38,567 bases of DNA from a virus (Duplodnaviria; Heunggongvirae; Uroviricota; Caudoviricetes), in the IMG/VR virus record IMGVR_UViG_2531839486_000019, positions 1 through 38,567 of that record; one strand, written 5' to 3'. Below the pieces are notes generated by a model that searched no databases, was not told the origin of the DNA, and saw only the letters and a program-made list of their open reading frames with translations. Positions 1,266-33,467 of this stretch are shown piece by piece (position 1 is the stretch's first letter; every line of letters starts with the position of its first letter). The translations under genes were made by a program, and so were the position numbers.

Positions 1266-1754
1266 TCAGTGCCCCATTTTCAGGGAGTCGTACTGCCGCT
1301 CGCATGTCAGTCCTGCAGAACGATATCGCTCAGCCTCTTCTGCTGCTGCGATGTAAGCTCGGTTGCTTTCTTCAAGCATGTCGGCGAGCACACCGATGAC
1401 CTTGCTGGCTGGCGTGCCAGCGGGGAAAGATCCGGTATAGTGTTCGGCGAGTCGCTTGGTTTTGTCAAGTTCGGCGCGCAGGCCGTCAGCAGCGGTATTA
1501 GCATGCTCAGCATCAACACGCGCCACATCGATACGGGATTGTGCTTCACGTTCAATTTGTGTTTTCTCCTGATCACGTTGTGCCCTGGCCTTATCATCAG
1601 CCTGTTTCTGATCTGCCTGTGCCTGCGCATACCCCGCATCGTACTGGCGGCTGCCGTGTACATTCCAGGCAACCACACCTCCGATGACAAGAGCAGCAAG
1701 CATCAACACGATAAGCAACTTTTTCCAGTACGCTTTGACGAGTGCCCAGATCAT
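1266..1754 (-). CDS. Rz-like inner-membrane spanin (i-spanin)
   Basis: ATG at 1752-1754 overlaps endolysin stop (1751-1753); N-terminal TM (LLIVLMLAALVIGGVVAW) then charged coiled coil; the track ORF extends further 5' as an artefact. Confidence 0.65.
   Translation of the reverse strand: MIWALVKAYWKKLLIVLMLAALVIGGVVAWNVHGSRQYDAGYAQAQADQKQADDKARAQRDQEKTQIEREAQSRIDVARVDAEHANTAADGLRAELDKTKRLAEHYTGSFPAGTPASKVIGVLADMLEESNRAYIAAAEEAERYRSAGLTCERQYDSLKMGH
1307..1528 (-). CDS. Rz1-like outer-membrane lipoprotein spanin (o-spanin), nested in the +1 frame of Rz
   Basis: internal ATG at 1526-1528; lipobox LLTAC followed by Pro-rich segment (PNLTKPSDSPNTIPDLSP); nested within the i-spanin gene. Confidence 0.45.
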   Translation of the reverse strand: MWRVLMLSMLIPLLTACAPNLTKPSDSPNTIPDLSPLARQPARSSVCSPTCLKKATELTSQQQKRLSDIVLQD

Positions 1755-2377
1755 AAAAGCACCTTGCTGGCGGTAATGTACCGCGCGCGACGGTCGTCGA
1801 TACCGTTCTGCCCACCATTGATGATCTGCGTGACGCGCACCAGGTCGCCGGTGTACTTCATGCAGCCTTTGGTTGCAAAGAACCACGCCGCGCTACGGGC
1901 CGCGTATTCGTCCTGCGCCAGCAGTTCCGGTTGTTTGACCAGATCCACCTTCAGGCCGTTGCCGCAGTCCCGGTAGTTGTTCAGGCCGGTGATCTGGATA
2001 AGCCCGCGCCCGCGGTAAAACCAGCCGTCGGTCGGCCCGTTATTCCCCATGCGTTTGCTGTACACCAGGTTGGCGATCGCACGCTGGCGTTCCAGTGGCA
2101 GTGACGGCTCACCAGCACGACGGCCCAGCGCGTTGGCCTGTCCCTGAGTGAGACGCCCGGCGCGGACGAATCCTGCCAGCCCGGTAACGCTGTAGTTAAA
2201 GTTCTCCTGAAGCCGGGTAAAGCCGCCTGACTCATGCCCCGCCTGCGCGATAAACATCGCCTGGTGCAGCGGCTGCTCAATACCAAACTCTTTCATAGCC
2301 GCGGTGATATGCAGATACCAGCGCGTGGCCAGTACGTCACTGATACCAGCGGCACGCTGGAATTGTTTAATGTCCAT
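1751..2377 (-). CDS. endolysin, glycoside hydrolase family 19 (chitinase-like lysozyme)
   Basis: FIAQAGHESGGF and GRGLIQITG motifs typical of GH19 phage endolysins; sits between holin-like and spanin genes. Confidence 0.85.
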   Translation of the reverse strand: MDIKQFQRAAGISDVLATRWYLHITAAMKEFGIEQPLHQAMFIAQAGHESGGFTRLQENFNYSVTGLAGFVRAGRLTQGQANALGRRAGEPSLPLERQRAIANLVYSKRMGNNGPTDGWFYRGRGLIQITGLNNYRDCGNGLKVDLVKQPELLAQDEYAARSAAWFFATKGCMKYTGDLVRVTQIINGGQNGIDDRRARYITASKVLL

Positions 2378-2660
2378 GCTGGGACCTCGTTATCTTGAAA
2401 ATTTGTACCACGTTCCCTTTTGTCTTGATGAGCGCAGCCAGGAACACGGCTTTGATGATGACTTCTGACCAGTCGGCGCTGACGTAGTAACCGTAGAAGG
2501 TTCGGATAGGTACGCTGGCGGCCACGACGATAAGCAGGTATGCGAGCCATCCACCCCACCAGCGATGGCGTGACCCGTCACGGCGGAACAGAAGCACTCG
2601 GATTGCAATGCCGCCGCAGATAGCGGCATTAAGGATGAGAAGAAGCTCAGGACTGGTCAT
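2367..2660 (-). CDS. holin-like small membrane protein
   Basis: 97 aa, 2-3 hydrophobic helices; ATG at 2658-2660; stop overlaps endolysin start by 11 nt. Confidence 0.55.
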   Translation of the reverse strand: MTSPELLLILNAAICGGIAIRVLLFRRDGSRHRWWGGWLAYLLIVVAASVPIRTFYGYYVSADWSEVIIKAVFLAALIKTKGNVVQIFKITRSQHGH

Positions 2661-3060
2661 CGTCTTTTCTCCCCGGGATCAGGTCGCGTGGATTTCCAGA
2701 ACGGTGATACAGCCAGGTACCGATACCAACAGCCACGATTGAAGAAACAAACGCCCCTGCTGAGTACGCTACCCCTTTCTCAAACATATCTGTGGTGATA
2801 CCAGGAAAAGCGGATGCAAAGCCGATGAGAAGTGTTGCTGTCGGTTTGTAGAAGAGAACTCCGCATAGGTAGCTGAGGAACGCCAGCAGTAACCGACGTT
2901 TAATCGGATACTCTACTGCTGAGGTAACAAAAATTACCGCACCAGCAAGCGAACCTAACGCCACCTCGGGAGGGACACCGACGACAACTGAAGCCATCGC
3001 ACCCAGACTAAGCCCCTGATTGAGTGACTCCGTTGTCAGCACATGTGCCATAGTGACCAC
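2647..3060 (-). CDS. membrane protein of the lysis cassette (second holin or antiholin candidate)
   Basis: 137 aa with several TM segments; stop overlaps next gene start by 14 nt; alternative start at Met4. Confidence 0.5.
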   Translation of the reverse strand: MVTMAHVLTTESLNQGLSLGAMASVVVGVPPEVALGSLAGAVIFVTSAVEYPIKRRLLLAFLSYLCGVLFYKPTATLLIGFASAFPGITTDMFEKGVAYSAGAFVSSIVAVGIGTWLYHRSGNPRDLIPGRKDDDQS

Positions 3061-4247: not shown

Positions 4248-6536
4248 CTACAGTACAGGGGAAAGTGATACTCTTAACCCGGATGTAGACGATAGGGTTA
4301 AAGAACCAACAGCTTTGATATTGAGAATATCTCCAGTTGTAACAAATTTAACCATGTCTACCGTCTGCCCTGCGGAAGCATTCTCCTCAGAAGCTCCATT
4401 AATGCCAAAAGTTAACGATCCCGAAGATACCCCTCTGGCAAACACAGAAATTCTTACCAGCGCTGGTGCATTGAACTGAATAGTACCTCCGGATAACGCA
4501 GCGTTTGCCGTCCCATTTAACGAAGAGAATGTCACTTCTGCTCCAGATGCGAATGATGTTCCGGTTGTTACGGTTGTCTGACCAAACCCGACCATTCGGT
4601 TTTTAAAACGGTAAGAATCAAGGCTGGTCAAGCTGATATTAGAAAGTCGCGTATTTGCTGATATGTCAAGATATCCTCCAGATTCATTTATCACTCTTGT
4701 GTTAGCCGCATCAGCCAAAATAGTAGATGGCCTCAAGTTTAGCCTTCCTCCTGAAAGAACATGAATGATCCCCTCTGATGTCGAGTCTTGTGTGACATGA
4801 AAAATAGCGCTGAGATTAACATCGATATTTGAATTTGATCCTACGCGTAATATACAAGCAGCTGAACTTTCGCAAGATACATCTCCATAAAACCAACTAT
4901 TGGTTGTCTGAAAACAAGAAGGAGTTGGGGAGGAAGCGGTGTGTTTTTTTATATTTTCAAAAGTCACGCGTTCCAGCTTGCCATTGCCAAAATACTCAAC
5001 CTGCATACCGCGAGTATAACCATTAAATGACAGACGAAACGATACTGAGTTACCACAGTCAAGAGTCGTCGAAAAATGGTCAGCCCAAAGCCCAAAAGAC
5101 AAGACAGGATCGGAGGTTTCAGCAGCCAAGCCTACATGCCTTCCAGCTAATTTACCAAGGAACGCAACGTTAAATCTAATCCCCCCATTAAACCCCCGGC
5201 TGTCGATCTCAATGTCAAAGTCTGCCATATGAGGGGCATAAATCGCCCAGTCAGATTTCATACTTGATTGCAACGTAAAACCTTTGGCTACAATCCCCCT
5301 TGCGAAGGGGGTTGCAGCATTCTGCCGCTTAATGATGACCCCAGCATCCACATCAAAGGGTACAAGGTCACCAACACCAGGATAGGCAAGAGGAGGAATG
5401 CCACTGGTAGTGTTATCAACTTTCACAAATCTGGGTGTAAAAGCTGCATCACTACCTATTGTCATTCCTTCAATGTGATTGTAGTAATCAAGTACGATCG
5501 GTTTTTTATGATAAATAACAGATGTAATGTAAACAATTGAATAACCAAACCTAGATCGGGTAACTGCCTGTGCTATAAAAGCGTCATTTTGCTCTGCAAA
5601 TGATTCATCAATAATTTTTACACCGAATTGCTGAAAATTGTATGTATCCTTCTTCATAAGCCATGCAAATTTTGTTTCGTCGATAACTACTGACCCAGCA
5701 TCCGTATAGTCCTGAAGAGGTGCACCTTCGCTAATAATGTAATCCGCGCCACCTCCGTCGTTTGGCGTATAGTAGCCCAGCGTTCTGCACACCTTCCCGA
5801 CGGCTGGTGCAGTTGAGATCATATCAGCTACGTTCTGAAAGACGTTATCCACTCCACCGATCAGCAAAGACCCATGTGTTGCAGCAAGCTGTATAAGAAC
5901 ATCAGAGGCCGAACCAGAAGGAGGCAGTACGACAAATGGATTACCCGAACTGTCGAAGGCAATCATTTTGTTTGCCCTGGTAGCCGCATCAGGTAGCTGA
6001 GATATAGGATCTGGGACTCGTAACGTGCGACTAAAATTGTTGTTCGCCAGCGTATCAACATAATTCTTGGTGGCCGCATCCTGCGGGTCGCGCGGATCTC
6101 GAAGATTACGGATGTAGTTGTTAAGGGCGTCGTACCAGTTCGCAATGCTGGACGGTTTACGCAGCGCCAGGCGAAACATACTGTAGGCCTGCTGGATCAG
6201 CATCGTCAGCTTATCGAAAGCGTCTTCATGTACCTCAGCGAAGAACTTGCCCTGATTACGCAAATCAGTTTCCTGCGTAACCGGGAGGTCTCGTGATATA
6301 GAAATCTGATAACCGTTAGCCAACGCCTTCGACAGAATTACATTACCGCCGTTGTACCCTCCCGCACCAGTTACTGTGTAATCAGTATCAAGAGCCAGCA
6401 CAGCGATATTTTCATCAAGGTCAACCACCTGAACAACCAGGTCGGATTTTTTGAAAATACGGAAGGTATACGGAAATGATGTCGTAGCGCCGTTACCGGT
6501 GTATTCGTTGTGGTCAACTTCGGTTGAGACCGTCAT
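4248..6536 (-). CDS. tailspike / tail fiber with T7 gp17-like N-terminal anchor domain and large C-terminal receptor-binding (probable depolymerase) domain
   Basis: ATG 6534-6536 with RBS GGAGA 8 nt upstream; N-terminal ~110 aa resemble podovirus tail-fiber N-domain; C-terminal two-thirds AT-rich. Confidence 0.85.
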   Translation of the reverse strand: MTVSTEVDHNEYTGNGATTSFPYTFRIFKKSDLVVQVVDLDENIAVLALDTDYTVTGAGGYNGGNVILSKALANGYQISISRDLPVTQETDLRNQGKFFAEVHEDAFDKLTMLIQQAYSMFRLALRKPSSIANWYDALNNYIRNLRDPRDPQDAATKNYVDTLANNNFSRTLRVPDPISQLPDAATRANKMIAFDSSGNPFVVLPPSGSASDVLIQLAATHGSLLIGGVDNVFQNVADMISTAPAVGKVCRTLGYYTPNDGGGADYIISEGAPLQDYTDAGSVVIDETKFAWLMKKDTYNFQQFGVKIIDESFAEQNDAFIAQAVTRSRFGYSIVYITSVIYHKKPIVLDYYNHIEGMTIGSDAAFTPRFVKVDNTTSGIPPLAYPGVGDLVPFDVDAGVIIKRQNAATPFARGIVAKGFTLQSSMKSDWAIYAPHMADFDIEIDSRGFNGGIRFNVAFLGKLAGRHVGLAAETSDPVLSFGLWADHFSTTLDCGNSVSFRLSFNGYTRGMQVEYFGNGKLERVTFENIKKHTASSPTPSCFQTTNSWFYGDVSCESSAACILRVGSNSNIDVNLSAIFHVTQDSTSEGIIHVLSGGRLNLRPSTILADAANTRVINESGGYLDISANTRLSNISLTSLDSYRFKNRMVGFGQTTVTTGTSFASGAEVTFSSLNGTANAALSGGTIQFNAPALVRISVFARGVSSGSLTFGINGASEENASAGQTVDMVKFVTTGDILNIKAVGSLTLSSTSGLRVSLSPVL

Positions 6537-6614
6537 GTTAAATCTCCAGATAGTCGCAGCACCCGTTGCGCCGCATATCTGGTTATTCTATTACCTGAAA
6601 AACCACATATGGAT

Positions 6615-6656
6615 AGACAACCCATAAATAAGAACAGATATTACCTTTCAGGTGAT
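6615..6656 (+). promoter_or_regulatory. candidate promoter plus operator-like dyad upstream of the 85-aa plus-strand gene
   Basis: -35-like TAGACA (6615-6620), 17-bp spacer, -10-like GATATT (6638-6643) overlapping dyad TTACC-TTTCA-GGTGA (6642-6656). Confidence 0.4.
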
Positions 6657-6731
6657 TCGCAAAACGTGCTGGATAGCAAACAAATTATTTGCTACTGTAT
6701 AAATATACAGTTATTGCATGGAGAAGATAAG

Positions 6732-6989
6732 ATGCAGCAGTATCACTATCCACTGGAAGACGGATTTACCGAAAGGATTCACACGCCGGGAGGCGTCAGA
6801 TCACTAGTGGAGGGATCGCACTTGATGAAATTACTCCGGGATCTCGATAAGGATGGATTTAATGTCGATGGCCCACTTGCCGAACTGACTGCACTGATTA
6901 ACTACGTCACCAGCTCACAGATGTCTATGCAGGATCTGCAAACACATCTCGACTATTGTGCCGAACAATTACGAAAACAAACTACATAA
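6732..6989 (+). CDS. hypothetical 85-aa protein (cargo gene on opposite strand to late genes)
   Basis: internal ATG at 6732 preceded by GGAGAAG; the longer track ORF from 6609 lacks an RBS; TAA at 6987-6989. Confidence 0.5.
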   Translation: MQQYHYPLEDGFTERIHTPGGVRSLVEGSHLMKLLRDLDKDGFNVDGPLAELTALINYVTSSQMSMQDLQTHLDYCAEQLRKQTT

Positions 6990-6990
6990 A

Positions 6991-7012
6991 GAAAAGGCCG
7001 CGAAAGCGGCCT
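6991..7012 (-). terminator. rho-independent terminator acting on the minus strand
   Basis: stem aggccgc / gcggcct with GAAA loop; on the minus strand it is followed by TTTTCTTT. Confidence 0.5.
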
Positions 7013-7020
7013 GTGACATG

Positions 7021-7317
7021 TCACGTTCCTTTTCTGAATGCTAGCCATTCGAAAAATGATGACATTCCACCGCAGACAATAGCAAAGATGATCCCACCAA
7101 AGAAGAGAAGGCCAGCCTGCCACCACTCCCACCGCCATACATCCACAGCGCCAACCATACCAACAATCGCTCCAACAAATGGAATATAGCTCACGATGAA
7201 AGCAATGGGGGCTGCAATTATCCAGTGCAATCCCCACCATGATTCAAGCCCAGCCATAATTGCTGCCAACTGAAAAAGACCAACGACGATATAAACAATG
7301 AATCCTATAGCTTGCAT
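7021..7317 (-). CDS. small membrane protein (3 predicted TM helices), function unknown
   Basis: ATG at 7315-7317 with RBS AGGTGA; the N-terminal extension of the track ORF is unsupported; hydrophobic, Trp-rich. Confidence 0.5.
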   Translation of the reverse strand: MQAIGFIVYIVVGLFQLAAIMAGLESWWGLHWIIAAPIAFIVSYIPFVGAIVGMVGAVDVWRWEWWQAGLLFFGGIIFAIVCGGMSSFFEWLAFRKGT

Positions 7318-7513
7318 GTAGTCACCTAATTTACCCAGTAAAAATAAGAGGCCTCCCCTCAATAAGGCTTGCAACAAGAACGACTCCCTGCACAACAAAG
7401 ATGAACCAGCAAATAGCTTGAGTCTGAGGGTTAAGAAAATATTTGTAGCGGTCAATAAATAACAATCCACCAGAAATTATCACACTCAAAATAATTAAAA
7501 ACACAACACTTCC

Positions 7514-9988
7514 TTATTGCGGAGTGACATCCTGTGGTCGCCACCAGTATGTCTGGTTAAACTCTTTCTTCGAACGTTGCTCCATTTTACGCAAATAACC
7601 TGGTGAAAAATACTCCTGCATCTGGTTAAAGATCATGTGATCGAGAGCCGCCTTTAAGTACCAGAGATTCGCACCTGGCATCAGACCTTTCCCCAGCTTA
7701 ACCAGATCACCACCAGTCTGCTCATTCTTCCCTTCCACAGCATTTAACGGTATGCCCTGAGCAATCTTCACTACGTCATCAACCAGACCAGCTACCGGGC
7801 CAAGCATCGACGCCAGCGCGCCGCTTCCGTACCTAGTGTGATCTGACAATAAAAAGTCACCGTAAAGGCCAAGACCACCACCTTTCAGTAGAGCACCAAG
7901 CCAAAATTTAGCAGCATCTTCTCCTGTCATCTCGCGAGGATTACGACCAGACGCAAGGTCGTTAAGTTGCTGCGACAAAGCGCCAAGAATGGTCGTACTG
8001 GCAATAAACGTCGCAATATATGCCGCACGCCCACCAGCCGACGGCATACCCATAGCGCGTGACCAGTGACGCATAACCACCGAGATAGGGAACGATTTAA
8101 ACAGGAAAACACTTCTCGTTAATTCACCTTTCCATGTTCCACGCTGAATACCAGAACCGGTTATCAGTTGCTCACGTGCACCCGGTGTAATAACAGCCAT
8201 ATCAACTTCTTCAGTTACGGCACCGAGCAGTTTACGCATTGCCTCAAATTTCACGCGTTCAGGCTCACCAAGATGTTTAACTGCTGAATCATGGATACGC
8301 ATAATGCTTTCCGGTGTCAGCATCGTATTATTGCCGTTCCCCCAGTCCTCCTGTTGCGCCAGCTTCCATACGCTCCAGTCTGTGTCAGTAATCCCTTTGC
8401 TTTTCAGGATACGAAAATCAGAATCATCGAGGCTACGAAGGTCTGGTGTCCGTGACACTACTTCTCCCAGGCTTCCCATCATGGTTACGCCATAGGCGCG
8501 CTTGTGCGCATCTGACCATGCTGTAAGCCCACTGGCACGCATTACCGCCGTTGCAGCCCAACGAGACACAGACGGCCCCATATTATCCATCGCCCAGCGG
8601 TTAACGCTGCCAAGTAGAGATTCCATCGCCAGACCAGCGCGGCGCGCCCGCGCAAGTTCTGTACGGTTCGTTGGGTCCATAGCTTCAAGCTGGTTGCGGA
8701 ATAACTGGTTCATTGGAAGGTTGGTAACCTTCGCAGACAGATACATGGTTCCAAGATCAGAGAACGATGACAGCAACGCGGATCCGAGTCTGCTGGCAAC
8801 CAGCCAGTTGCGGATATTGTCAGACCATCGCGCGATGTGCGGATTCGCTACAGGCTGTGTCTTTCCGGAAATAAAGTTGTACAGATTCTCTGTGTTGTTC
8901 GCCAGCCGCTCGACTTTACCGGTTTTACTCGGGTTAGCTGTTGCCGTTTCTGCCTTCACCTGATCAAGAAGAGAGCGGAAAACATGATCGGGGTTTGGGC
9001 CATATGTTTCCACCAGTGCAATATCTTTACTGATACCTTCAAGGTGACCGACCATGATTTCCCATAGAGAGCGATCGCCATAAAGTTGCTGATATTGCAG
9101 ATAGGAATCTGCATCTTTGAAATGTATCTGTCGTGATGCATTACCACGGTTAGCACGTGCGCCGGAAATTCGCATTCCGGTATCAGTAAGCTTATTCAGC
9201 CCACCAGTAGCGATCGTGTTATAAGCCTCTCCAAGAAATGCAGACAACTCGGCATCGTTCATCAGTTGTCCATCGGCTCGGGGATAATATTTGCGATCCA
9301 GCTTACCTATAACATCGCTAACCCATTTATCTTTTGATACCGCCCCAACCTTTTCCATAGAATGATGTTGAGGGATCCCCCAGTTTTCGAGATAGCCAAT
9401 GTCCCCACCAGCATCATTAAACCGGCGGCGCAGCAGCTCTGTAACTTCTCTCCACGCCTTAGCACCTTTTCTTGCTTTAGCATTGCCAGTATTTTGCCCC
9501 CGCATTTCATATACCAGGTCACGTACGCCCGCTTCATCTTCAAACAGACCAAAAAAGCGAGGATCAACTGCTTCGAATGCCTCCTGCAATTGACTCAATG
9601 CATAATCACGGGTGGCTTTTGTTCTGGATTCAACAGAGAGGAAATTCGATTTACCGTCTGCATTAAAAGCAATAGTACGGTTAAGAGCGCCAAGTTTCCC
9701 ATCAGCCCCTTGATAGCTATTGATAAATTTATCCAATCTCTGACGTGCGGCTATAGTGAGGGCCACACGACGTTTCTTTAATGCCGCTTCTCGCTGTAAT
9801 CCTTCAGATGCCAATTGTGCTGCACGATATAGCCGCTCTGATTCGGAAAGTTGTCTCCACGACATCGGGTCATCACGAGCAATGGAGCGCATATTTCGAT
9901 AAATGCGGTCTTCAATGTTCTGTATTTCTCGCGCCGTTAACGTGCGCTGCGCCGCCTGCTGGACCGCTTGTATACATTCCTGTCTCAT
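7514..9988 (-). CDS. internal virion (ejection/core) protein, T7 gp16-like by position and size
   Basis: 824-aa ORF at the end of the structural operon just before the tailspike; synteny with T7-like internal core proteins. Confidence 0.65.
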   Translation of the reverse strand: MRQECIQAVQQAAQRTLTAREIQNIEDRIYRNMRSIARDDPMSWRQLSESERLYRAAQLASEGLQREAALKKRRVALTIAARQRLDKFINSYQGADGKLGALNRTIAFNADGKSNFLSVESRTKATRDYALSQLQEAFEAVDPRFFGLFEDEAGVRDLVYEMRGQNTGNAKARKGAKAWREVTELLRRRFNDAGGDIGYLENWGIPQHHSMEKVGAVSKDKWVSDVIGKLDRKYYPRADGQLMNDAELSAFLGEAYNTIATGGLNKLTDTGMRISGARANRGNASRQIHFKDADSYLQYQQLYGDRSLWEIMVGHLEGISKDIALVETYGPNPDHVFRSLLDQVKAETATANPSKTGKVERLANNTENLYNFISGKTQPVANPHIARWSDNIRNWLVASRLGSALLSSFSDLGTMYLSAKVTNLPMNQLFRNQLEAMDPTNRTELARARRAGLAMESLLGSVNRWAMDNMGPSVSRWAATAVMRASGLTAWSDAHKRAYGVTMMGSLGEVVSRTPDLRSLDDSDFRILKSKGITDTDWSVWKLAQQEDWGNGNNTMLTPESIMRIHDSAVKHLGEPERVKFEAMRKLLGAVTEEVDMAVITPGAREQLITGSGIQRGTWKGELTRSVFLFKSFPISVVMRHWSRAMGMPSAGGRAAYIATFIASTTILGALSQQLNDLASGRNPREMTGEDAAKFWLGALLKGGGLGLYGDFLLSDHTRYGSGALASMLGPVAGLVDDVVKIAQGIPLNAVEGKNEQTGGDLVKLGKGLMPGANLWYLKAALDHMIFNQMQEYFSPGYLRKMEQRSKKEFNQTYWWRPQDVTPQ

Positions 9989-19599: not shown

Positions 19600-20592
19600 T
19601 TACACCACGCGGGCTTCTGTTTCCAGAAGCGCATCAGTTTCACGGATTGGTACACCACGGAATGAAGTCCACCACTCGCCTTCTGTCTCTTTTACGCTGA
19701 TCGCCAGAGATGTTTTCTCCAGAGATTGCAGATCAAGAGCCTGGCCTACAGTGCGGTTCATGTAGAACACCGGGCGACCCATGCCACGATTTGGAATGCG
19801 ATGCAGTGCTTTAACCATCAACTTCGCAATATTTGCGGCAGAGGAAGGTTCTGAAAGATTGCTGACATCGATGTTTGCAATGCGAACAACATAACGCCAG
19901 TCACGCAGAGCAAGTCCGTTGTCCCATTTGTAATGGGTACGGTAGCCTTCGTACTTGCCGCCATTCGCATCTTCCAGTGTCACCTGGCCTTTATCTTCCA
20001 TCTGGATGCCAGCCTTCTGCCCTTTCGGGAAGATGCCATGCACGGTGTTTTCGCCCCACACCACTAACCAGATTGAGGTGTTATCTGTACCCGTGCCACC
20101 AGCATCAATGATGTTCTGAGCATTACCCGCAGACAGGCTGGAATAGCGGGAGGACAGTCCCATAAACTGCTGAGGGTTAACGCTGGAATCACCATAAAAC
20201 AGCGTCTGCGCCATCTGCTGATTCATCGCTTCAATAAATGCGCGGTCTTCAGACAGGCGGAATTCGGCGGTATTGCCGTTCAGATCAGCCAGTGACTTAT
20301 CGACTTCAGCATAGGTTTCCAGCATGCCAACGGAATCTGTTACCTGCACTGTGGTTGATTTGCTTGGCTGTACGCCATAGTTCAGCAAACGCCAGGTAGC
20401 TGAAGGTAAACCAGAACGAATGGTGGTTCGGTGTCCGGTAGGAAGGTTCCCTTCGACAAAAGGCATATCCTGAAGGATCGGGTTAGTTTGACCGAGAAGC
20501 TCGATAATCTTATCGACTTTCCCGTTTGGATCGACGCGCTTACCCCAGTCAGCCAGCGTTAGCGCAGTTAAGCCTTTAACAGCCATTGTCAT
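19600..20592 (-). CDS. major capsid protein (T7 gp10-like)
   Basis: 330 aa after the scaffold gene; RBS GAGAGG favours the start at Met3 (20584-20586). Confidence 0.8.
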   Translation of the reverse strand: MTMAVKGLTALTLADWGKRVDPNGKVDKIIELLGQTNPILQDMPFVEGNLPTGHRTTIRSGLPSATWRLLNYGVQPSKSTTVQVTDSVGMLETYAEVDKSLADLNGNTAEFRLSEDRAFIEAMNQQMAQTLFYGDSSVNPQQFMGLSSRYSSLSAGNAQNIIDAGGTGTDNTSIWLVVWGENTVHGIFPKGQKAGIQMEDKGQVTLEDANGGKYEGYRTHYKWDNGLALRDWRYVVRIANIDVSNLSEPSSAANIAKLMVKALHRIPNRGMGRPVFYMNRTVGQALDLQSLEKTSLAISVKETEGEWWTSFRGVPIRETDALLETEARVV

Positions 20593-23919: not shown

Positions 23920-23996
23920 GTGGCATTAGCTCAGTTGGACAGAGCAACCGCCTTCTAAGCGGTTGGTCGCAGGTTCGAATCCTGCATGCCACGCCA
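23920..23996 (+). tRNA. tRNA-Arg (anticodon UCU), phage-encoded
   Basis: 77-nt cloverleaf: acceptor GTGGCAT/ATGCCAC, D-stem GCTC/GAGC, anticodon stem ACCGC/GCGGT with loop CTTCTAA, T-arm GCAGG-TTCGAAT-CCTGC, discriminator G, encoded CCA. Confidence 0.85.
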
Positions 23997-24081: not shown

Positions 24082-24159
24082 ACAGCAGGACGCCATTGCG
24101 ATGACTTCATGCTGTAAACCCGTACAGCCACGGAAGGCATAACTCATTGCTTCCAGTTC

Positions 24160-24194: not shown

Positions 24195-24566
24195 ATGAAC
24201 GACCAGCAAATCGAAAAAGAAATCGTTGAGAAAGGAAAAACGGCACCGCGCGTTACGCCAGACCATATCGAAGGCATTATTGCTCAGGAGGCATATTTCA
24301 CAGCAGAAGATGGTGCCTTTGGCAAAGCCATAAAAGCGAAACATACTGGCGGAGAGGTAAACTACCAGCCGCACGAATCACTTTCTCTGCTGACGTTCTG
24401 CGTCCTGGTACTGCGCAACGGCTTCACCGTCACCGGAGAGAGTGCCTGTGCAAGTCCGGAAAATTTTGATGCAGAAATTGGTCGGAAGATTGCCCGGCAG
24501 AATGCTGTAAACAAAATCTGGATGCTCGAAGGTTACTTGCTGAAGCAGAAGCTAAGCGAGCAATAA
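24195..24566 (+). CDS. hypothetical 123-aa protein (cargo gene co-oriented with the tRNA)
   Basis: ATG 24195 with RBS AAGGTGAG 5 nt upstream; TAA at 24564-24566; terminator downstream. Confidence 0.6.
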   Translation: MNDQQIEKEIVEKGKTAPRVTPDHIEGIIAQEAYFTAEDGAFGKAIKAKHTGGEVNYQPHESLSLLTFCVLVLRNGFTVTGESACASPENFDAEIGRKIARQNAVNKIWMLEGYLLKQKLSEQ

Positions 24567-24586
24567 CACCGTGACATGTCACAAAC

Positions 24587-26794: not shown

Positions 26795-26843
26795 AGTATT
26801 CAAAACACATCAAATTCATCATGCATAATCTACTCGTGACATG

Positions 26844-27185
26844 TCACACTATTAATTTCGTTTCATGCCAGCCTTTAGTCACCCAGCATTGCGAGTCACC
26901 ATTACACGGGCATGAATTAACTGGAACTCTCTCGCCGCACTTACCGCAACGTTTTCTGCTGATCGATTTTATACGCCCGCGCACGCGTGCATCATCCTGG
27001 CGGATCAGTAACGCTATATACTCACCAAATTCGTAAGGCGCACGCCCGGGGCGACGCGTGGCACAGTTACGCTCCAGCATTTCAATTTCCTGAGCATCAA
27101 GCACAATCTCCAGCTTACGCACACCAGATGCAGCTTGTCTGGCTCTCTGAGCGGCTTTGCGCTCTGCTGCTGATTTAGCCATCAA
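26844..27185 (-). CDS. Cys-rich zinc-finger protein; candidate late-gene regulator (position of lambda Q)
   Basis: 113 aa; basic N-terminus and C-terminal cluster CGKCGERVPVNSCPCNGDSQC; last early gene before the terminases. Confidence 0.5.
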   Translation of the reverse strand: MMAKSAAERKAAQRARQAASGVRKLEIVLDAQEIEMLERNCATRRPGRAPYEFGEYIALLIRQDDARVRGRIKSISRKRCGKCGERVPVNSCPCNGDSQCWVTKGWHETKLIV

Positions 27186-32882: not shown

Positions 32883-33467
32883 ATGAAAAGTATCCAGGAC
32901 GTCCGCAGGCAAAATCTCAACGACTTGATCGACCGTGAATTCAATGGTGTTCAGACGCGGATGGCAGAAAAACTTGGAACTCAGGCAAATCTGGTAAACC
33001 GCTGGGCTCTTGGCAAGAAGGTTATCGGCGACCAGGTTGCGCGAAAAATTGAAGCTGCCGCCAATAAACCCCGTAACTGGCTTGATATCGATCGCTCGCT
33101 TTCTCAGGAAGGTTTTCAGCCTGTCGGCCCAAGCGACATTGGTCAGCTGGCGGCTCACAACCTGGAACGCTGGATGAGCGAAAGCCGCGACCTTTCAACA
33201 CAGGGAAAACTTCACCGCGCATCCGGCGTCGCCCAGGTGACAATCAGCCGCCTGTTAAACAATGAGGTCAGCGTTTCCATTTCCACCCTGGAGAATGTTG
33301 CATCTGCATTCGGGCGTCACGGATATGAACTACTGATTCACCCGCACGACCCTGCAACTATCAACTATGACCGCTCGCGCTACGCATTATTACCTGAAAC
33401 CGAGAAAGCAAAGATCGAAAGTTACATTGAATTTGTCATCAACCAGAACGAAAAAAACAAACAATAA
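32883..33467 (+). CDS. CI-like repressor candidate with HTH domain(s) and no recognisable LexA/S24 cleavage domain
   Basis: XRE-type HTH (GVQTRMAEKLGTQANLVNRWALGKK) and a second HTH-like stretch; no Ala-Gly/Ser-Lys peptidase motifs seen; divergent from Cro-like gene. Confidence 0.55.
   Translation: MKSIQDVRRQNLNDLIDREFNGVQTRMAEKLGTQANLVNRWALGKKVIGDQVARKIEAAANKPRNWLDIDRSLSQEGFQPVGPSDIGQLAAHNLERWMSESRDLSTQGKLHRASGVAQVTISRLLNNEVSVSISTLENVASAFGRHGYELLIHPHDPATINYDRSRYALLPETEKAKIESYIEFVINQNEKNKQ

What the first reader, a model, noticed from the sequence alone, without database searches (positions are those of the whole stretch)
6732..7317. Convergent pair of small genes between the ejection-protein and tailspike genes
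An 85-aa soluble protein on the plus strand, with its own dyad-containing promoter, converges on a 98-aa three-helix membrane protein on the minus strand. The terminator and the GTGACATGTCAC palindrome lie between them. Neither gene has a T7-module counterpart. The position and architecture fit cargo such as superinfection exclusion or an immunity-type function.
Basis: inference. Interest (0 to 1): 0.5.

Follow-up and report, generated by a model that had tools for sequence, protein, structure and literature searches.

The report
LexA-controlled antirepressor beside accessory membrane gene
The plus-strand gene is the already characterised SOS-triggered antirepressor that wakes up epsilon15/phiV10-type prophages. 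The gene facing it is an unrelated, optional small membrane protein of unknown function, so the two are neighbours rather than a working pair.

Summary
The sequence features are real and at the stated coordinates. The window is a Uetakevirus (epsilon15/phiV10-like) E. coli phage.

- **ORF A (6732-6989, +).** It is 88% identical to Ant of Salmonella phage SPC32H and matches PDB 5D50 at E 1e-47. A near-consensus LexA box (6693-6712) lies 39 nt upstream of its ATG. The box aligns with the base whose mutation separates SPC32N from SPC32H. The cognate repressor Rep is at 32883-33467. ORF A is therefore the core lysis-lysogeny switch antirepressor, not cargo.
- **ORF B (7021-7317, -).** It is a genuine gene (dN/dS 0.03) for a helical membrane protein. 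It sits with an overlooked 57-aa ORF C (7331-7504) at the end of the ejection-protein unit. Relatives carry other small membrane proteins in this slot. ORF B matches no named family or fold. Entry exclusion is plausible by analogy with P22 SieA but untested.
- **Hairpin (6995-7012).** It has a U-tract only on the ORF B strand.
- **GTGACATGTCAC.** It occurs three times in the window. A GTGAC-NN-GTCAC dyad sits at the stop codon of a conserved regulator gene (26844-27185) in four further phage lineages, so it is probably that regulator's operator.

Overall the finding is mostly known biology with two open side questions.

The parts
6640..6656 (.). Rep-operator-like dyad ATTACCTTTCAGGTGAT in the ant-tailspike intergenic region
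   Evidence: The motif ATTACC-N5-GGTAAT with up to 2 mismatches occurs 13 times in the window against 1.08 expected. The homologous epsilon15 site (19895-19911) is annotated 'repressor' in GenBank AY150271. It is conserved in alignment A1.
6693..6712 (+). LexA (SOS) box TACTGTATAAATATACAGTT overlapping the ant promoter
   Evidence: It matches 18 of 20 positions of the consensus TACTGTATATATATACAGTA (consensus taken from established knowledge). It lies 39 nt upstream of the ATG. The same box is at -39 or -42 in phiV10, phiv142-3, TL-2011b, SPC32H, 65FD and epsilon15, and is broken (ACAG to AAAG) in SPC32N.
6732..6989 (+). ant: 85-aa antirepressor (ORF A)
   Evidence: 88.1% identical to SPC32H/SPC32N 'ant'. 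Matches PDB 5D50 chain E 'Anti-repressor protein' at E 1.3e-47. Hits phrog_450. dN/dS 0.043. UniRef names the exact sequence 'Anti-repressor protein'.
6995..7012 (-). Intrinsic terminator hairpin of the late ejection-protein unit (U-tract 6994 to 6985 on the minus strand)
   Evidence: 7 pairs, 6 of them G-C, loop of 4, tail TTTTCTTTAT, called on the minus strand only. RNA folding gives -17.3 kcal/mol, z -2.8. Conserved in phiV10, SPC32H, epsilon15 and BUCT711.
7013..7024 (.). GTGACATGTCAC, one of three identical 12-bp palindromes; it contains the ORF B stop codon
   Evidence: Three exact copies in the window, and it is the only 12-nt perfect palindrome present more than once. It is the only fully invariant block in alignment A3. 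It sits at syntenic places in epsilon15, SPC32H and phiV10.
7021..7317 (-). ORF B: 98-aa accessory helical membrane protein, function unknown
   Evidence: Hits phrog_3075. The family has 736 representatives and no named Pfam, NCBIfam or PADLOC family. AlphaFold2 pLDDT is 90.7. dN/dS 0.027. Present in 7 phage records.
7331..7504 (-).
   Evidence: Found in 6 phage records, all of which also carry ORF B. Its reading frame is conserved in BUCT711, where it is unannotated. dN/dS 0.155.
7514..9988 (-). gp17-type internal virion / ejection protein, the last large gene of the late unit
   Evidence: phrog_684 'virion structural protein', E 0. Syntenic with epsilon15 gp17 and phiV10 p20.
4248..6536 (-). 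Tailspike, a separate late unit downstream of ant
   Evidence: Hits phrog_32960 and phrog_1640 'tail protein' and has a T7-tail-like N-terminal domain. A Rep-operator-like site lies about 105 nt upstream.
32883..33467 (+). rep: 194-aa repressor, the target of Ant
   Evidence: Matches PDB 5D50 chain A 'Repressor' at E 4e-42 over residues 1-190. Pfam HTH_3.
24571..24582 (.). Second copy of GTGACATGTCAC, abutting the terminator between terL and an antisense gp49_66-family gene
26836..26847 (.). Third copy of GTGACATGTCAC, containing the stop codon of the 113-aa regulator gene and lying upstream of terS
26844..27185 (-). 113-aa regulator (epsilon15 gp49 / N15 gp46 family), candidate binder of the palindrome
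   Evidence: phrog_536 'transcriptional regulator', E 8e-55. The homologous genes in ZF40, a Yersinia P2-like phage, N15 and phiKO2 all end in or next to GTGAC-NN-GTCAC.

Best explanation
The two genes are neighbours that belong to different functional modules of an epsilon15/phiV10-type temperate podovirus.

**ORF A is Ant.**
- In the lysogen, host LexA sits on the SOS box that overlaps the ant promoter and keeps ant silent.
- DNA damage leads to RecA-stimulated LexA self-cleavage, and Ant is then made.
- As shown for the SPC32H ortholog, an Ant tetramer binds two Rep dimers and breaks up the DNA-binding Rep tetramer.
- This frees the ATTACC-N5-GGTAAT operators that sit at the early promoters and at each late unit, and the prophage enters lytic growth.
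- For this window, sequence identity, the box position and the presence of Rep are shown. The biochemistry is inferred from the ortholog.

**ORF B and ORF C.**
- They are the last two genes of the late unit that encodes the internal ejection proteins. This unit ends at the hairpin and U-tract at 7012 to 6985.
- They occupy a slot where related phages carry other, unrelated small membrane proteins.
- ORF B is therefore an exchangeable accessory inner-membrane protein.
- My best guess for its role, held at about 0.3, is interference with DNA entry by incoming related phages at the inner membrane, as P22 SieA does. This step is inference only.

**The palindrome.** GTGACATGTCAC is neither a private feature of this junction nor part of the hairpin. 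It is one of three copies of a site that probably binds the 113-aa regulator encoded at 26844-27185.
For: **Ant identity.**
- tblastn gives 88.1% identity to the annotated ant of SPC32H and SPC32N.
- PDB 5D50 Ant matches at E 1.3e-47 and Rep at E 4e-42.
- The gene order gp17 / small membrane gene / ant / tailspike is the same as in SPC32H.
- ant is present in all 35 related phage records.

**LexA control.**
- TACTGTATAAATATACAGTT aligns column for column with the SPC32H box.
- SPC32N differs from SPC32H there by a single C-to-A change in the ACAG half.
- The mechanism as described in the literature is that LexA-controlled Ant inhibits the repressor by protein-protein contact, and that an Ant tetramer binds two Rep dimers.

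**Rep operators.** The motif occurs 13 times against 1.08 expected, including sites upstream of terS, the portal unit, the tailspike and the lysis genes. The epsilon15 GenBank annotation marks the equivalent sites.

**ORF B as late-unit accessory gene.**
- No sigma70-like site was found on its strand in 7000-8200.
- The ORF C stop codon is 13 nt from the ORF B start.
- In Cronobacter and Kosakonia prophages the homolog starts 1 nt after the gp17 stop.
- The slot is variable: phiV10 p21 and SPC32H 019 are 46 aa, epsilon15 gp18 is 64 aa, and here it holds ORF C plus ORF B.
- ORF B is in 7 phage records against 35 for ant.

**Sie analogy.** P22 has, between its ejection genes and its tailspike, a three-TM inner-membrane SieA and an antirepressor. 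SieA blocks injection through ejection proteins gp16 and gp20.

**Palindrome.**
Against: **Ant.** Nothing was found against the assignment. No experiment exists on this E. coli ortholog, the promoter hexamers are not obvious, and the original SPC32H papers could not be read here.

**ORF B as an exclusion factor.**
- It has no similarity to SieA (hhalign probability 0.3%) or to any PADLOC defence model.
- No promoter was found that would express it in a lysogen.
- Homologs also occur outside phage structural modules. Examples are downstream of umuDC in Buttiauxella, next to DUF6804 genes in alphaproteobacteria, and fused to DUF805, RDD or MORN domains.

**Palindrome as operator.** The evidence is co-occurrence only. 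In ZF40 the other two copies lie inside genes, not at unit ends.
Confidence: 0.8

Rival explanations
1. The two genes form one cargo cassette that acts together in superinfection exclusion or as an immunity/toxin-type pair.
For: They are adjacent and convergent, and they share one hairpin. ORF B is accessory.
Against: ORF A is the experimentally characterised Ant family with its Rep partner elsewhere in the genome. ant occurs without ORF B in phiV10, SPC32H, epsilon15, 65FD and TL-2011b. ORF B homologs occur without an ant homolog nearby in a Salmonella prophage, a lambdoid prophage and non-phage loci.
Confidence: 0.04
2. ORF B (with ORF C) is a lysis-timing protein, such as a holin, antiholin or pinholin-like protein, made late with the structural genes.
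For: It gives a weak Pfam hit to Phage_holin_5_2 (E 0.027, 15.2 bits). It is a small, very hydrophobic helical protein with a basic C-terminus. It appears to be co-transcribed with late genes.
Against: The Pfam score is far below the 29.2-bit cutoff. The phage has a complete lysis cassette elsewhere (ORFs at 1266-3060, assigned by analogy with the annotated lysis genes of phiV10, epsilon15 and SPC32H). ORF B is missing from most relatives that lyse normally. Fold searches gave no significant holin hit. Loci that carry an ORF B homolog also carry their own holins.
Confidence: 0.12
3. ORF B and ORF C are helpers of the ejection apparatus. They could be virion-borne, or membrane chaperones that help gp15-gp17 assemble or insert.
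For: The homolog abuts or overlaps the last ejection-protein gene in three podovirus lineages. Every Uetakevirus examined has some small membrane protein in this slot.
Against: The slot occupants do not align with each other in the nucleotide alignment A3 and their translations show no evident similarity, while the ejection proteins are conserved. ORF B also sits at prophage ends and in non-phage loci far from any ejection genes.
Confidence: 0.12
4. ORF B is a general-purpose membrane moron that alters host physiology (envelope stress, transport, tolerance) and has no phage-specific target.
For: The family has 736 representatives, including chromosomal and integrative-element contexts and fusions to other membrane domains. 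It sits at moron positions near integrase or attachment ends.
Against: Its position directly after the ejection genes recurs in podoviruses. No functional clue came from any neighbour or domain.
Confidence: 0.3
5. The GTGACATGTCAC palindrome is only an extension of the terminator or a chance repeat, with no separate function.
For: Two of the three copies directly abut terminator hairpins. On the plus strand it can form a small second hairpin.
Against: There are three exact copies, and only 3 of 100 shuffles reached the observed 5 matches even when 2 mismatches were allowed. The 12-mer is invariant while its flanks vary. Its position relative to the hairpin differs between copies. The same 12-mer occurs three times in the unrelated myovirus ZF40. 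GTGAC-NN-GTCAC sits at the stop codon of the homologous regulator gene in four further lineages.
Confidence: 0.08

Closest known systems
SPC32H Ant / Rep / LexA antirepression switch (Kim & Ryu 2013, doi 10.1128/JVI.02173-13; Kim et al. 2016, doi 10.1073/pnas.1602618113; PDB 5D50)
   Same: ORF A is 88% identical over its full length. The LexA box is at the same position relative to the start codon. The gene order and orientation between the gp17 homolog and the tailspike are the same. A Rep homolog with the same two-domain layout is present.
   Different: The host is E. coli rather than Salmonella. Rep is much more diverged than Ant (E 4e-42, with many substitutions). Here a two-gene membrane cassette (ORF C plus ORF B) replaces the single 46-aa gene 019 opposite ant. 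Nothing has been tested experimentally on this ortholog.
Coliphage 186 Tum and the Gifsy/Fels-2 antirepressors (Shearwin 1998; Lemire 2011)
   Same: The logic is the same: a LexA-repressed small antirepressor inactivates a repressor that RecA cannot cleave, by protein-protein contact.
   Different: There is no detectable sequence relationship, and Pfam DinI and other families gave no hit. From my own recollection of the Kim & Ryu abstract, Ant of SPC32H was described as a structurally distinct class.
P22 region between gene 16 and gene 9: sieA plus the mnt/arc/ant immI module
   Same: The position is the same, between ejection-protein genes and the tailspike. The two functional classes are the same: a small three-TM inner-membrane protein and an antirepressor.
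   Different: SieA and ORF B share no homology, and P22 Ant (300 aa) is unrelated in size to the 85-aa Ant. The orientations are swapped. sieA has its own prophage promoter, whereas none was found for ORF B. P22 ant is controlled by Mnt, Arc and sar, not by LexA.
phiV10 p21 / SPC32H gene 019 (46 aa) and epsilon15 gp18 (64 aa)
   Same: Each is a small hydrophobic protein encoded as the last gene before the GTGACATGTCAC-plus-hairpin unit end, directly after the gp17 homolog.
   Different: They are unrelated in sequence and length to ORF B and ORF C, and all are uncharacterised.

Membership tests
SPC32H-type Ant (LexA-controlled small antirepressor) | Full-length sequence homology to the characterised Ant | tested here: met
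   88.1% identity over residues 2-85. PDB 5D50_E matches at E 1.3e-47.
SPC32H-type Ant (LexA-controlled small antirepressor) | LexA box overlapping the ant promoter | tested here: met
   TACTGTATAAATATACAGTT lies at -39. It aligns with the SPC32H box and with the SPC32N C-to-A mutation site. LexA binding itself was not tested.
SPC32H-type Ant (LexA-controlled small antirepressor) | Cognate Rep repressor encoded in the same genome | tested here: met
   Window 32883-33467 matches PDB 5D50_A 'Repressor' at E 4e-42 over nearly the full length.
SPC32H-type Ant (LexA-controlled small antirepressor) | Conserved genomic position: divergent from the tailspike and convergent with the end of the gp17 unit | tested here: met
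   The order is the same in SPC32H, 65FD, epsilon15 and phiV10.
SPC32H-type Ant (LexA-controlled small antirepressor) | Ant binds Rep and dissociates its tetramer; ant is required for SOS induction | not testable with these tools
   Known for SPC32H only. Needs biochemistry and genetics.
P22 SieA-type superinfection exclusion protein (for ORF B) | Sequence or profile homology to SieA | tested here: not met
   hhalign of family alignment A2 against P22 SieA gives probability 0.3%. There is no PADLOC hit.
P22 SieA-type superinfection exclusion protein (for ORF B) | Small polytopic inner-membrane protein encoded beside the ejection-protein genes | tested here: met
   AlphaFold2 gives an all-helical hydrophobic model with pLDDT 90.7. 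The gene directly follows the gp17-type gene here and. Membrane location is predicted, not shown.
P22 SieA-type superinfection exclusion protein (for ORF B) | Expressed from the prophage through its own promoter | tested here: inconclusive
   No sigma70-consensus site was found on the minus strand in 7000-8200. A consensus scan cannot exclude weak or non-canonical promoters.
P22 SieA-type superinfection exclusion protein (for ORF B) | Blocks DNA injection of related phages | not testable with these tools
   Needs plating efficiency, K+ efflux and DNA-entry assays.
Holins (Pfam Phage_holin_5_2) (for ORF B) | Score above the family gathering threshold | tested here: not met
   15.2 bits against a cutoff of 29.2, E 0.027.
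Holins (Pfam Phage_holin_5_2) (for ORF B) | Linked to endolysin and spanin genes | tested here: not met
   By analogy with annotated relatives, the lysis cassette lies at about 1266-3060, beyond the tailspike and an acyltransferase-like gene.
Intrinsic (rho-independent) terminator | G+C-rich hairpin immediately followed by a U-tract on the transcribed strand | tested here: met
   Met on the minus strand, the ORF B unit: 7 pairs followed by TTTTCTTTAT. Not met on the plus strand, where the hairpin is followed by GTGACATGTCAC.

The most novel reading that the evidence does not exclude
The GTGAC-NN-GTCAC dyad is the operator of an uncharacterised regulator family (epsilon15 gp49 / N15 gp46, phrog_536). 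The family has an N-terminal region with only a sub-threshold resemblance to a LexA-regulated-protein model and a cysteine-rich C-terminus. Its gene carries one copy of the site at its own stop codon in podo-, myo-, P2-like and N15-like phages. In Uetakeviruses two further copies sit at the ends of the terminase unit and the ejection-protein unit. Bound regulator could gate transcription across these boundaries, for example by insulating ant from the late unit or licensing read-through into the tailspike. ORF B would be an exclusion factor aimed at incoming ejection proteins.
Probability: 0.35. Interest if true: 0.55.

Novelty: new member of a known kind. Interest (0 to 1): 0.3.

Why it matters
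**Practical value.** The antirepressor in this prophage type is labelled 'hypothetical protein' in RefSeq, as seen in all 12 listed complete E. coli genomes. About one in ten of those genomes (545 of 5426) carry part of this stretch, including O26 and O157 lineages. Recognising the gene as the LexA-controlled Ant tells us that SOS-inducing antibiotics will induce these prophages through antirepression rather than repressor cleavage.

**Open questions that are now concrete.**
- What does the exchangeable small membrane protein at the end of the ejection-protein unit do? The family is widespread and has no name.
- Is GTGAC-NN-GTCAC the operator of a conserved but unstudied phage regulator?

Neither question is a major surprise, but both are cheaply testable.

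Tried and rejected
**Family and structure searches on ORF B and ORF C.**
- Pfam, NCBIfam and PADLOC gave nothing above threshold.
- Foldseek of the ORF B model against PDB and BFVD gave no match with E below 3. The AFDB library was not available.
- hhalign of the ORF B family against P22 SieA showed no relationship.

**Looking for function through partners and neighbours.**
- Fusion partners of ORF B-family domains were only further membrane domains (DUF805, RDD) or MORN repeats, which are uninformative.
- I asked whether the 47-aa ORF preceding the ORF B homolog in a lambdoid prophage resembles ORF C. It does not; that ORF is hydrophilic.
- I asked whether a DUF6804 gene is a constant partner. 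It appears only in two alphaproteobacterial loci.

**Other sites examined and rejected.**
- A second CTGT-N8-ACAG at 24112, upstream of the gp49_66-family gene, has a GC-rich spacer and non-consensus flanks. I rejected it as a LexA box.
- The hairpin at 7361 to 7345 inside ORF C has only 3 G-C pairs and is not conserved in BUCT711. I rejected it as a terminator.
- The AT-rich dyad at 6674-6694 is not conserved outside the phiV10 lineage and is weakened in phiv142-3. It is probably incidental.

**Literature.**
- The original SPC32H and epsilon15 papers are not held in the library.
- No paper in the library contains the 12-mer.
Full report
**What is there**

- ORF A runs from ATG 6732 to TAA 6989 on the plus strand. 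It is 85 aa and has a GGAG 8 nt upstream.
- ORF B runs from ATG 7317 to TGA 7021 on the minus strand. It is 98 aa and has AGGTGA 5 nt upstream.
- Between them lie a G+C-rich hairpin (6995-7012) and the perfect palindrome GTGACATGTCAC (7013-7024).
- The flanks are a 762-aa tailspike (4248-6536, minus) and an 824-aa gp17-type internal virion protein (7514-9988, minus; phrog_684).
- A third small gene was missed. ORF C (7331-7504, minus, 57 aa, GTG start) sits between ORF B and the 824-aa gene.
- All three small genes are under purifying selection. dN/dS is 0.043 for ORF A against SPC32H, 0.027 for ORF B against Klebsiella phage BUCT711, and 0.155 for ORF C.

**Where the window comes from**

- Megablast places the region in Uetakevirus, the epsilon15/phiV10 group of temperate podoviruses.
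- The gene order of the whole window matches phiV10, epsilon15 and SPC32H.
- Part of the stretch 6500-7550 is found in 545 of 5426 complete E. coli genomes. The full arrangement is found in 47. In the records listed, all three small genes are annotated 'hypothetical protein'.

**ORF A is the antirepressor Ant**

- tblastn finds ORF A in 35 phage records. It is 88.1% identical to the gene annotated 'ant: anti-repressor protein' in Salmonella phages SPC32H and SPC32N.
- Against the PDB it matches chain E of 5D50, 'Anti-repressor protein', at E 1.3e-47.
- The 194-aa ORF at 32883-33467 matches chain A of the same entry, 'Repressor', at E 4e-42. Both partners of the solved complex are therefore encoded in the window.
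- Immediately upstream of ORF A, 6693-6712 reads TACTGTATAAATATACAGTT. This matches 18 of 20 positions of the LexA consensus, and both the CTGT and ACAG halves are intact.
- In the alignment with relatives, this box lines up with TACTGTATGTTTATACAGTG of SPC32H. SPC32N differs from SPC32H there by one base, ACAG to AAAG.
- From my recollection of the Kim & Ryu 2013 abstract (doi 10.1128/JVI.02173-13, reference seen), that is the LexA-site mutation that makes Ant constitutive. The paper itself could not be opened.
- The box lies 39-42 nt upstream of the ant start in every E. coli and Salmonella relative fetched. A one-mismatch variant is present in the Klebsiella and Cronobacter homologs.
- The published mechanism, as quoted in papers I could read, has two parts. 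After LexA self-cleavage, Ant is made and inhibits the repressor by protein-protein contact. The SPC32H Ant tetramer binds two Rep dimers and breaks the DNA-binding tetramer.
- I conclude with high confidence that ORF A is the core induction switch of this phage and not cargo.

**The other dyads in the intergenic region**

- 6640-6656 (ATTACCTTTCAGGTGAT) matches the motif that the epsilon15 GenBank record marks as 'repressor' binding sites, ATTACC-N5-GGTAAT.
- With up to 2 mismatches this motif occurs 13 times in the window against 1.08 expected. Sites lie near rep and upstream of terS, the portal unit, the lysis genes and the tailspike.
- The tailspike therefore very probably has its own Rep-controlled promoter, facing away from ant.
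- The AT-rich dyad at 6674-6694 is not conserved in the Salmonella phages and is weakened in phiv142-3, so I treat it as incidental.

**The hairpin**

- The scan calls the terminator only on the minus strand: 7 pairs followed by TTTTCTTTAT.
- On the plus strand the hairpin is followed by the palindrome, not by a U-tract.
- The same hairpin follows the last gene of the ejection-protein unit in phiV10, SPC32H, epsilon15 and BUCT711.
- It is therefore the end of the late unit that contains ORF B. Termination of ant transcripts there is at best weaker.

**ORF B**

- *Family.*
  - ORF B is phrog_3075 (unknown function). It has no Pfam, NCBIfam or PADLOC family, and the only Pfam hit is a sub-threshold holin match (E 0.027, 15.2 bits against a 29.2 cutoff).
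  - A word-indexed search found 52 clusters in Enterobacterales. A profile search found 736 representatives, 301 of them with E of 1e-10 or better.
  - Conserved motifs are ESWWG, YIPxxGxxxGxxGA and WxWxWWQA..LFFG.
- *Structure.* AlphaFold2 gives a confident all-helical model (pLDDT 90.7; helices 2-28, 32-42, 46-59, 65-97). It has no significant structural neighbour in PDB or BFVD. Every database name for the protein is 'hypothetical'.
- *Distribution.* ORF B is in only 7 phage records. ORF C is in 6 records, all of which also carry ORF B.
- *Podovirus contexts.*
  - In Cronobacter and Kosakonia prophages the homolog starts 1 nt after the gp17-type gene.
  - In a different Salmonella podovirus-like prophage it follows the last of the large internal-protein genes.
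  - In a Yersinia prophage it sits between the large internal-protein genes and a Bro-N gene, an Ant homolog and the tailspike.
- *Other contexts.*
  - It is found at prophage ends near integrase.
  - It follows the tail fibres in a lambdoid prophage.
  - It lies downstream of umuDC in Buttiauxella and beside DUF6804 genes in alphaproteobacteria.
- *The slot.* Alignment of the slot between the gp17 homolog and the palindrome shows different occupants. phiV10 and SPC32H have a 46-aa protein, epsilon15 has a 64-aa protein, this window has ORF C plus ORF B, and Cronobacter has ORF B alone.
- *Expression.* No sigma70-like site was found on the ORF B strand within 1.2 kb, so co-transcription with the late unit is the simplest reading.
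- *Conclusion.* ORF B is a real, exchangeable accessory membrane protein.

**What ORF B might do**

- The best analogy is P22. Between its ejection genes 7-20-16 and tailspike gene 9, P22 carries sieA and the mnt/arc/ant module.
- SieA is a three-TM inner-membrane protein that blocks DNA injection through ejection proteins gp16 and gp20.
- The same two functional classes sit in the same place here, but ORF B has no homology to SieA and the orientations are swapped.
- My estimates are about 0.3 for an entry-exclusion role, about 0.3 for a general membrane moron, and about 0.12 each for a lysis-timing role and an ejection-helper role.
- A functional pairing of ORF A with ORF B is essentially excluded by their independent distributions.

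**The palindrome**

- GTGACATGTCAC occurs exactly three times in the window (7013, 24571, 26836). It is the only 12-nt perfect palindrome present more than once.
- epsilon15 and SPC32H have it at the same three places and phiV10 at two of them (the third was not found in the linear record): after the last early-right gene and upstream of terS, after terL, and after the last gene of the ejection unit.
- It is the only invariant block in the slot alignment.
- Copy 26836 contains the stop codon of a 113-aa gene (26844-27185), which is phrog_536 'transcriptional regulator' of the epsilon15 gp49 / N15 gp46 family.
- The unrelated Pectobacterium myovirus ZF40 has a 66.7%-identical homolog. It also has exactly three copies of the same 12-mer, one of them 3 nt after that gene's stop.
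- In other lineages the homolog's stop codon lies inside a related dyad. A Yersinia P2-like phage has GTGACGCGTCAC, and N15 and phiKO2 have GTGACTGGTCAC.
- A Vibrio phage has GTGACACGTCAC 226 nt downstream of the stop. The Aeromonas homolog has only a degenerate version at its stop codon.
- No paper in the library contains the 12-mer.
- The most economical reading is that the dyad is this regulator's binding site. What it does at the ant / ORF B boundary is unknown. A transcriptional roadblock, a boundary element or an upstream activating site for the next late unit are all possible.

**Verdict**

Two side questions are worth a cheap experiment: the function of the ORF B family, and the link between the regulator and the dyad.

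Noticed in passing
window 7013-7024, 24571-24582, 26836-26847; regulator gene 26844-27185 (-); L033 (ZF40) 5125, 7622, 14944; L034 7292; L035 1767; L038 667: The 12-bp palindrome GTGACATGTCAC occurs three times in the window. A GTGAC-NN-GTCAC dyad sits in or next to the stop codon of the phrog_536 regulator gene (epsilon15 gp49 / N15 gp46 family) in podo-, myo-, P2-like and N15-like phages. It is a likely operator and appears to be undescribed.
   Followed up: partly
window 3156, 6640, 23582, 26724, 26742, 30419, 30481, 32427, 32812, 33525, 33587 (17-nt sites): The Rep-operator-like motif ATTACC-N5-GGTAAT occurs 13 times against about 1 expected. Sites lie not only around rep but upstream of each late unit (terS, portal unit, tailspike, lysis genes). 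This suggests that Rep represses the late units directly.
   Followed up: partly
L001 5250-5455, L004 2273-2494, L005 5585-5818 and 7036-7251, L010-L012 6937-7182, L016 8416-8655: In relatives, the Bro-N 'anti-repressor' genes in the variable region next to ant carry a C-terminal domain 37-45% identical to Ant. This explains the phrog_1760 hit and suggests second, fused antirepressor paralogs.
   Followed up: partly
window 7331-7504 (-); L008 3815-3988: ORF C (57 aa, two hydrophobic helices) is conserved and under purifying selection. It is unannotated in Klebsiella phage BUCT711 and YDC107_2, and it always accompanies ORF B in phage records.
   Followed up: yes
L030 6294-6305: In a lambdoid prophage the ORF B homolog ends in GTGATATATCAC. 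This is a still-perfect palindrome that differs from GTGACATGTCAC by a symmetric pair of substitutions, as if palindromy itself were selected or the site moved with the gene.
   Followed up: no
window 23920-23996 (+) and 24195-24566 (+): A tRNA-Arg(TCT) gene and a gene of the N4 gp49 / Sf6 gene 66 family (Pfam PF13876) are inserted antisense between terL and the portal unit. This second plus-strand island in the late region is bounded by the same palindrome plus a terminator.
   Followed up: no
L021 5146-7285; L018 7001-7646; L020 7001-7594: Distant ORF B homologs lie directly downstream of umuD-umuC in a Buttiauxella MAG. In two alphaproteobacterial loci they lie directly upstream of a DUF6804 membrane-protein gene.
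   Followed up: partly
L002 3231-3484 (YDC107_2): The ant gene of Escherichia phage YDC107_2 is split into two tblastn pieces and annotated as a truncated 51-aa ORF. This points to a frameshift or a sequencing error in that record.
   Followed up: no
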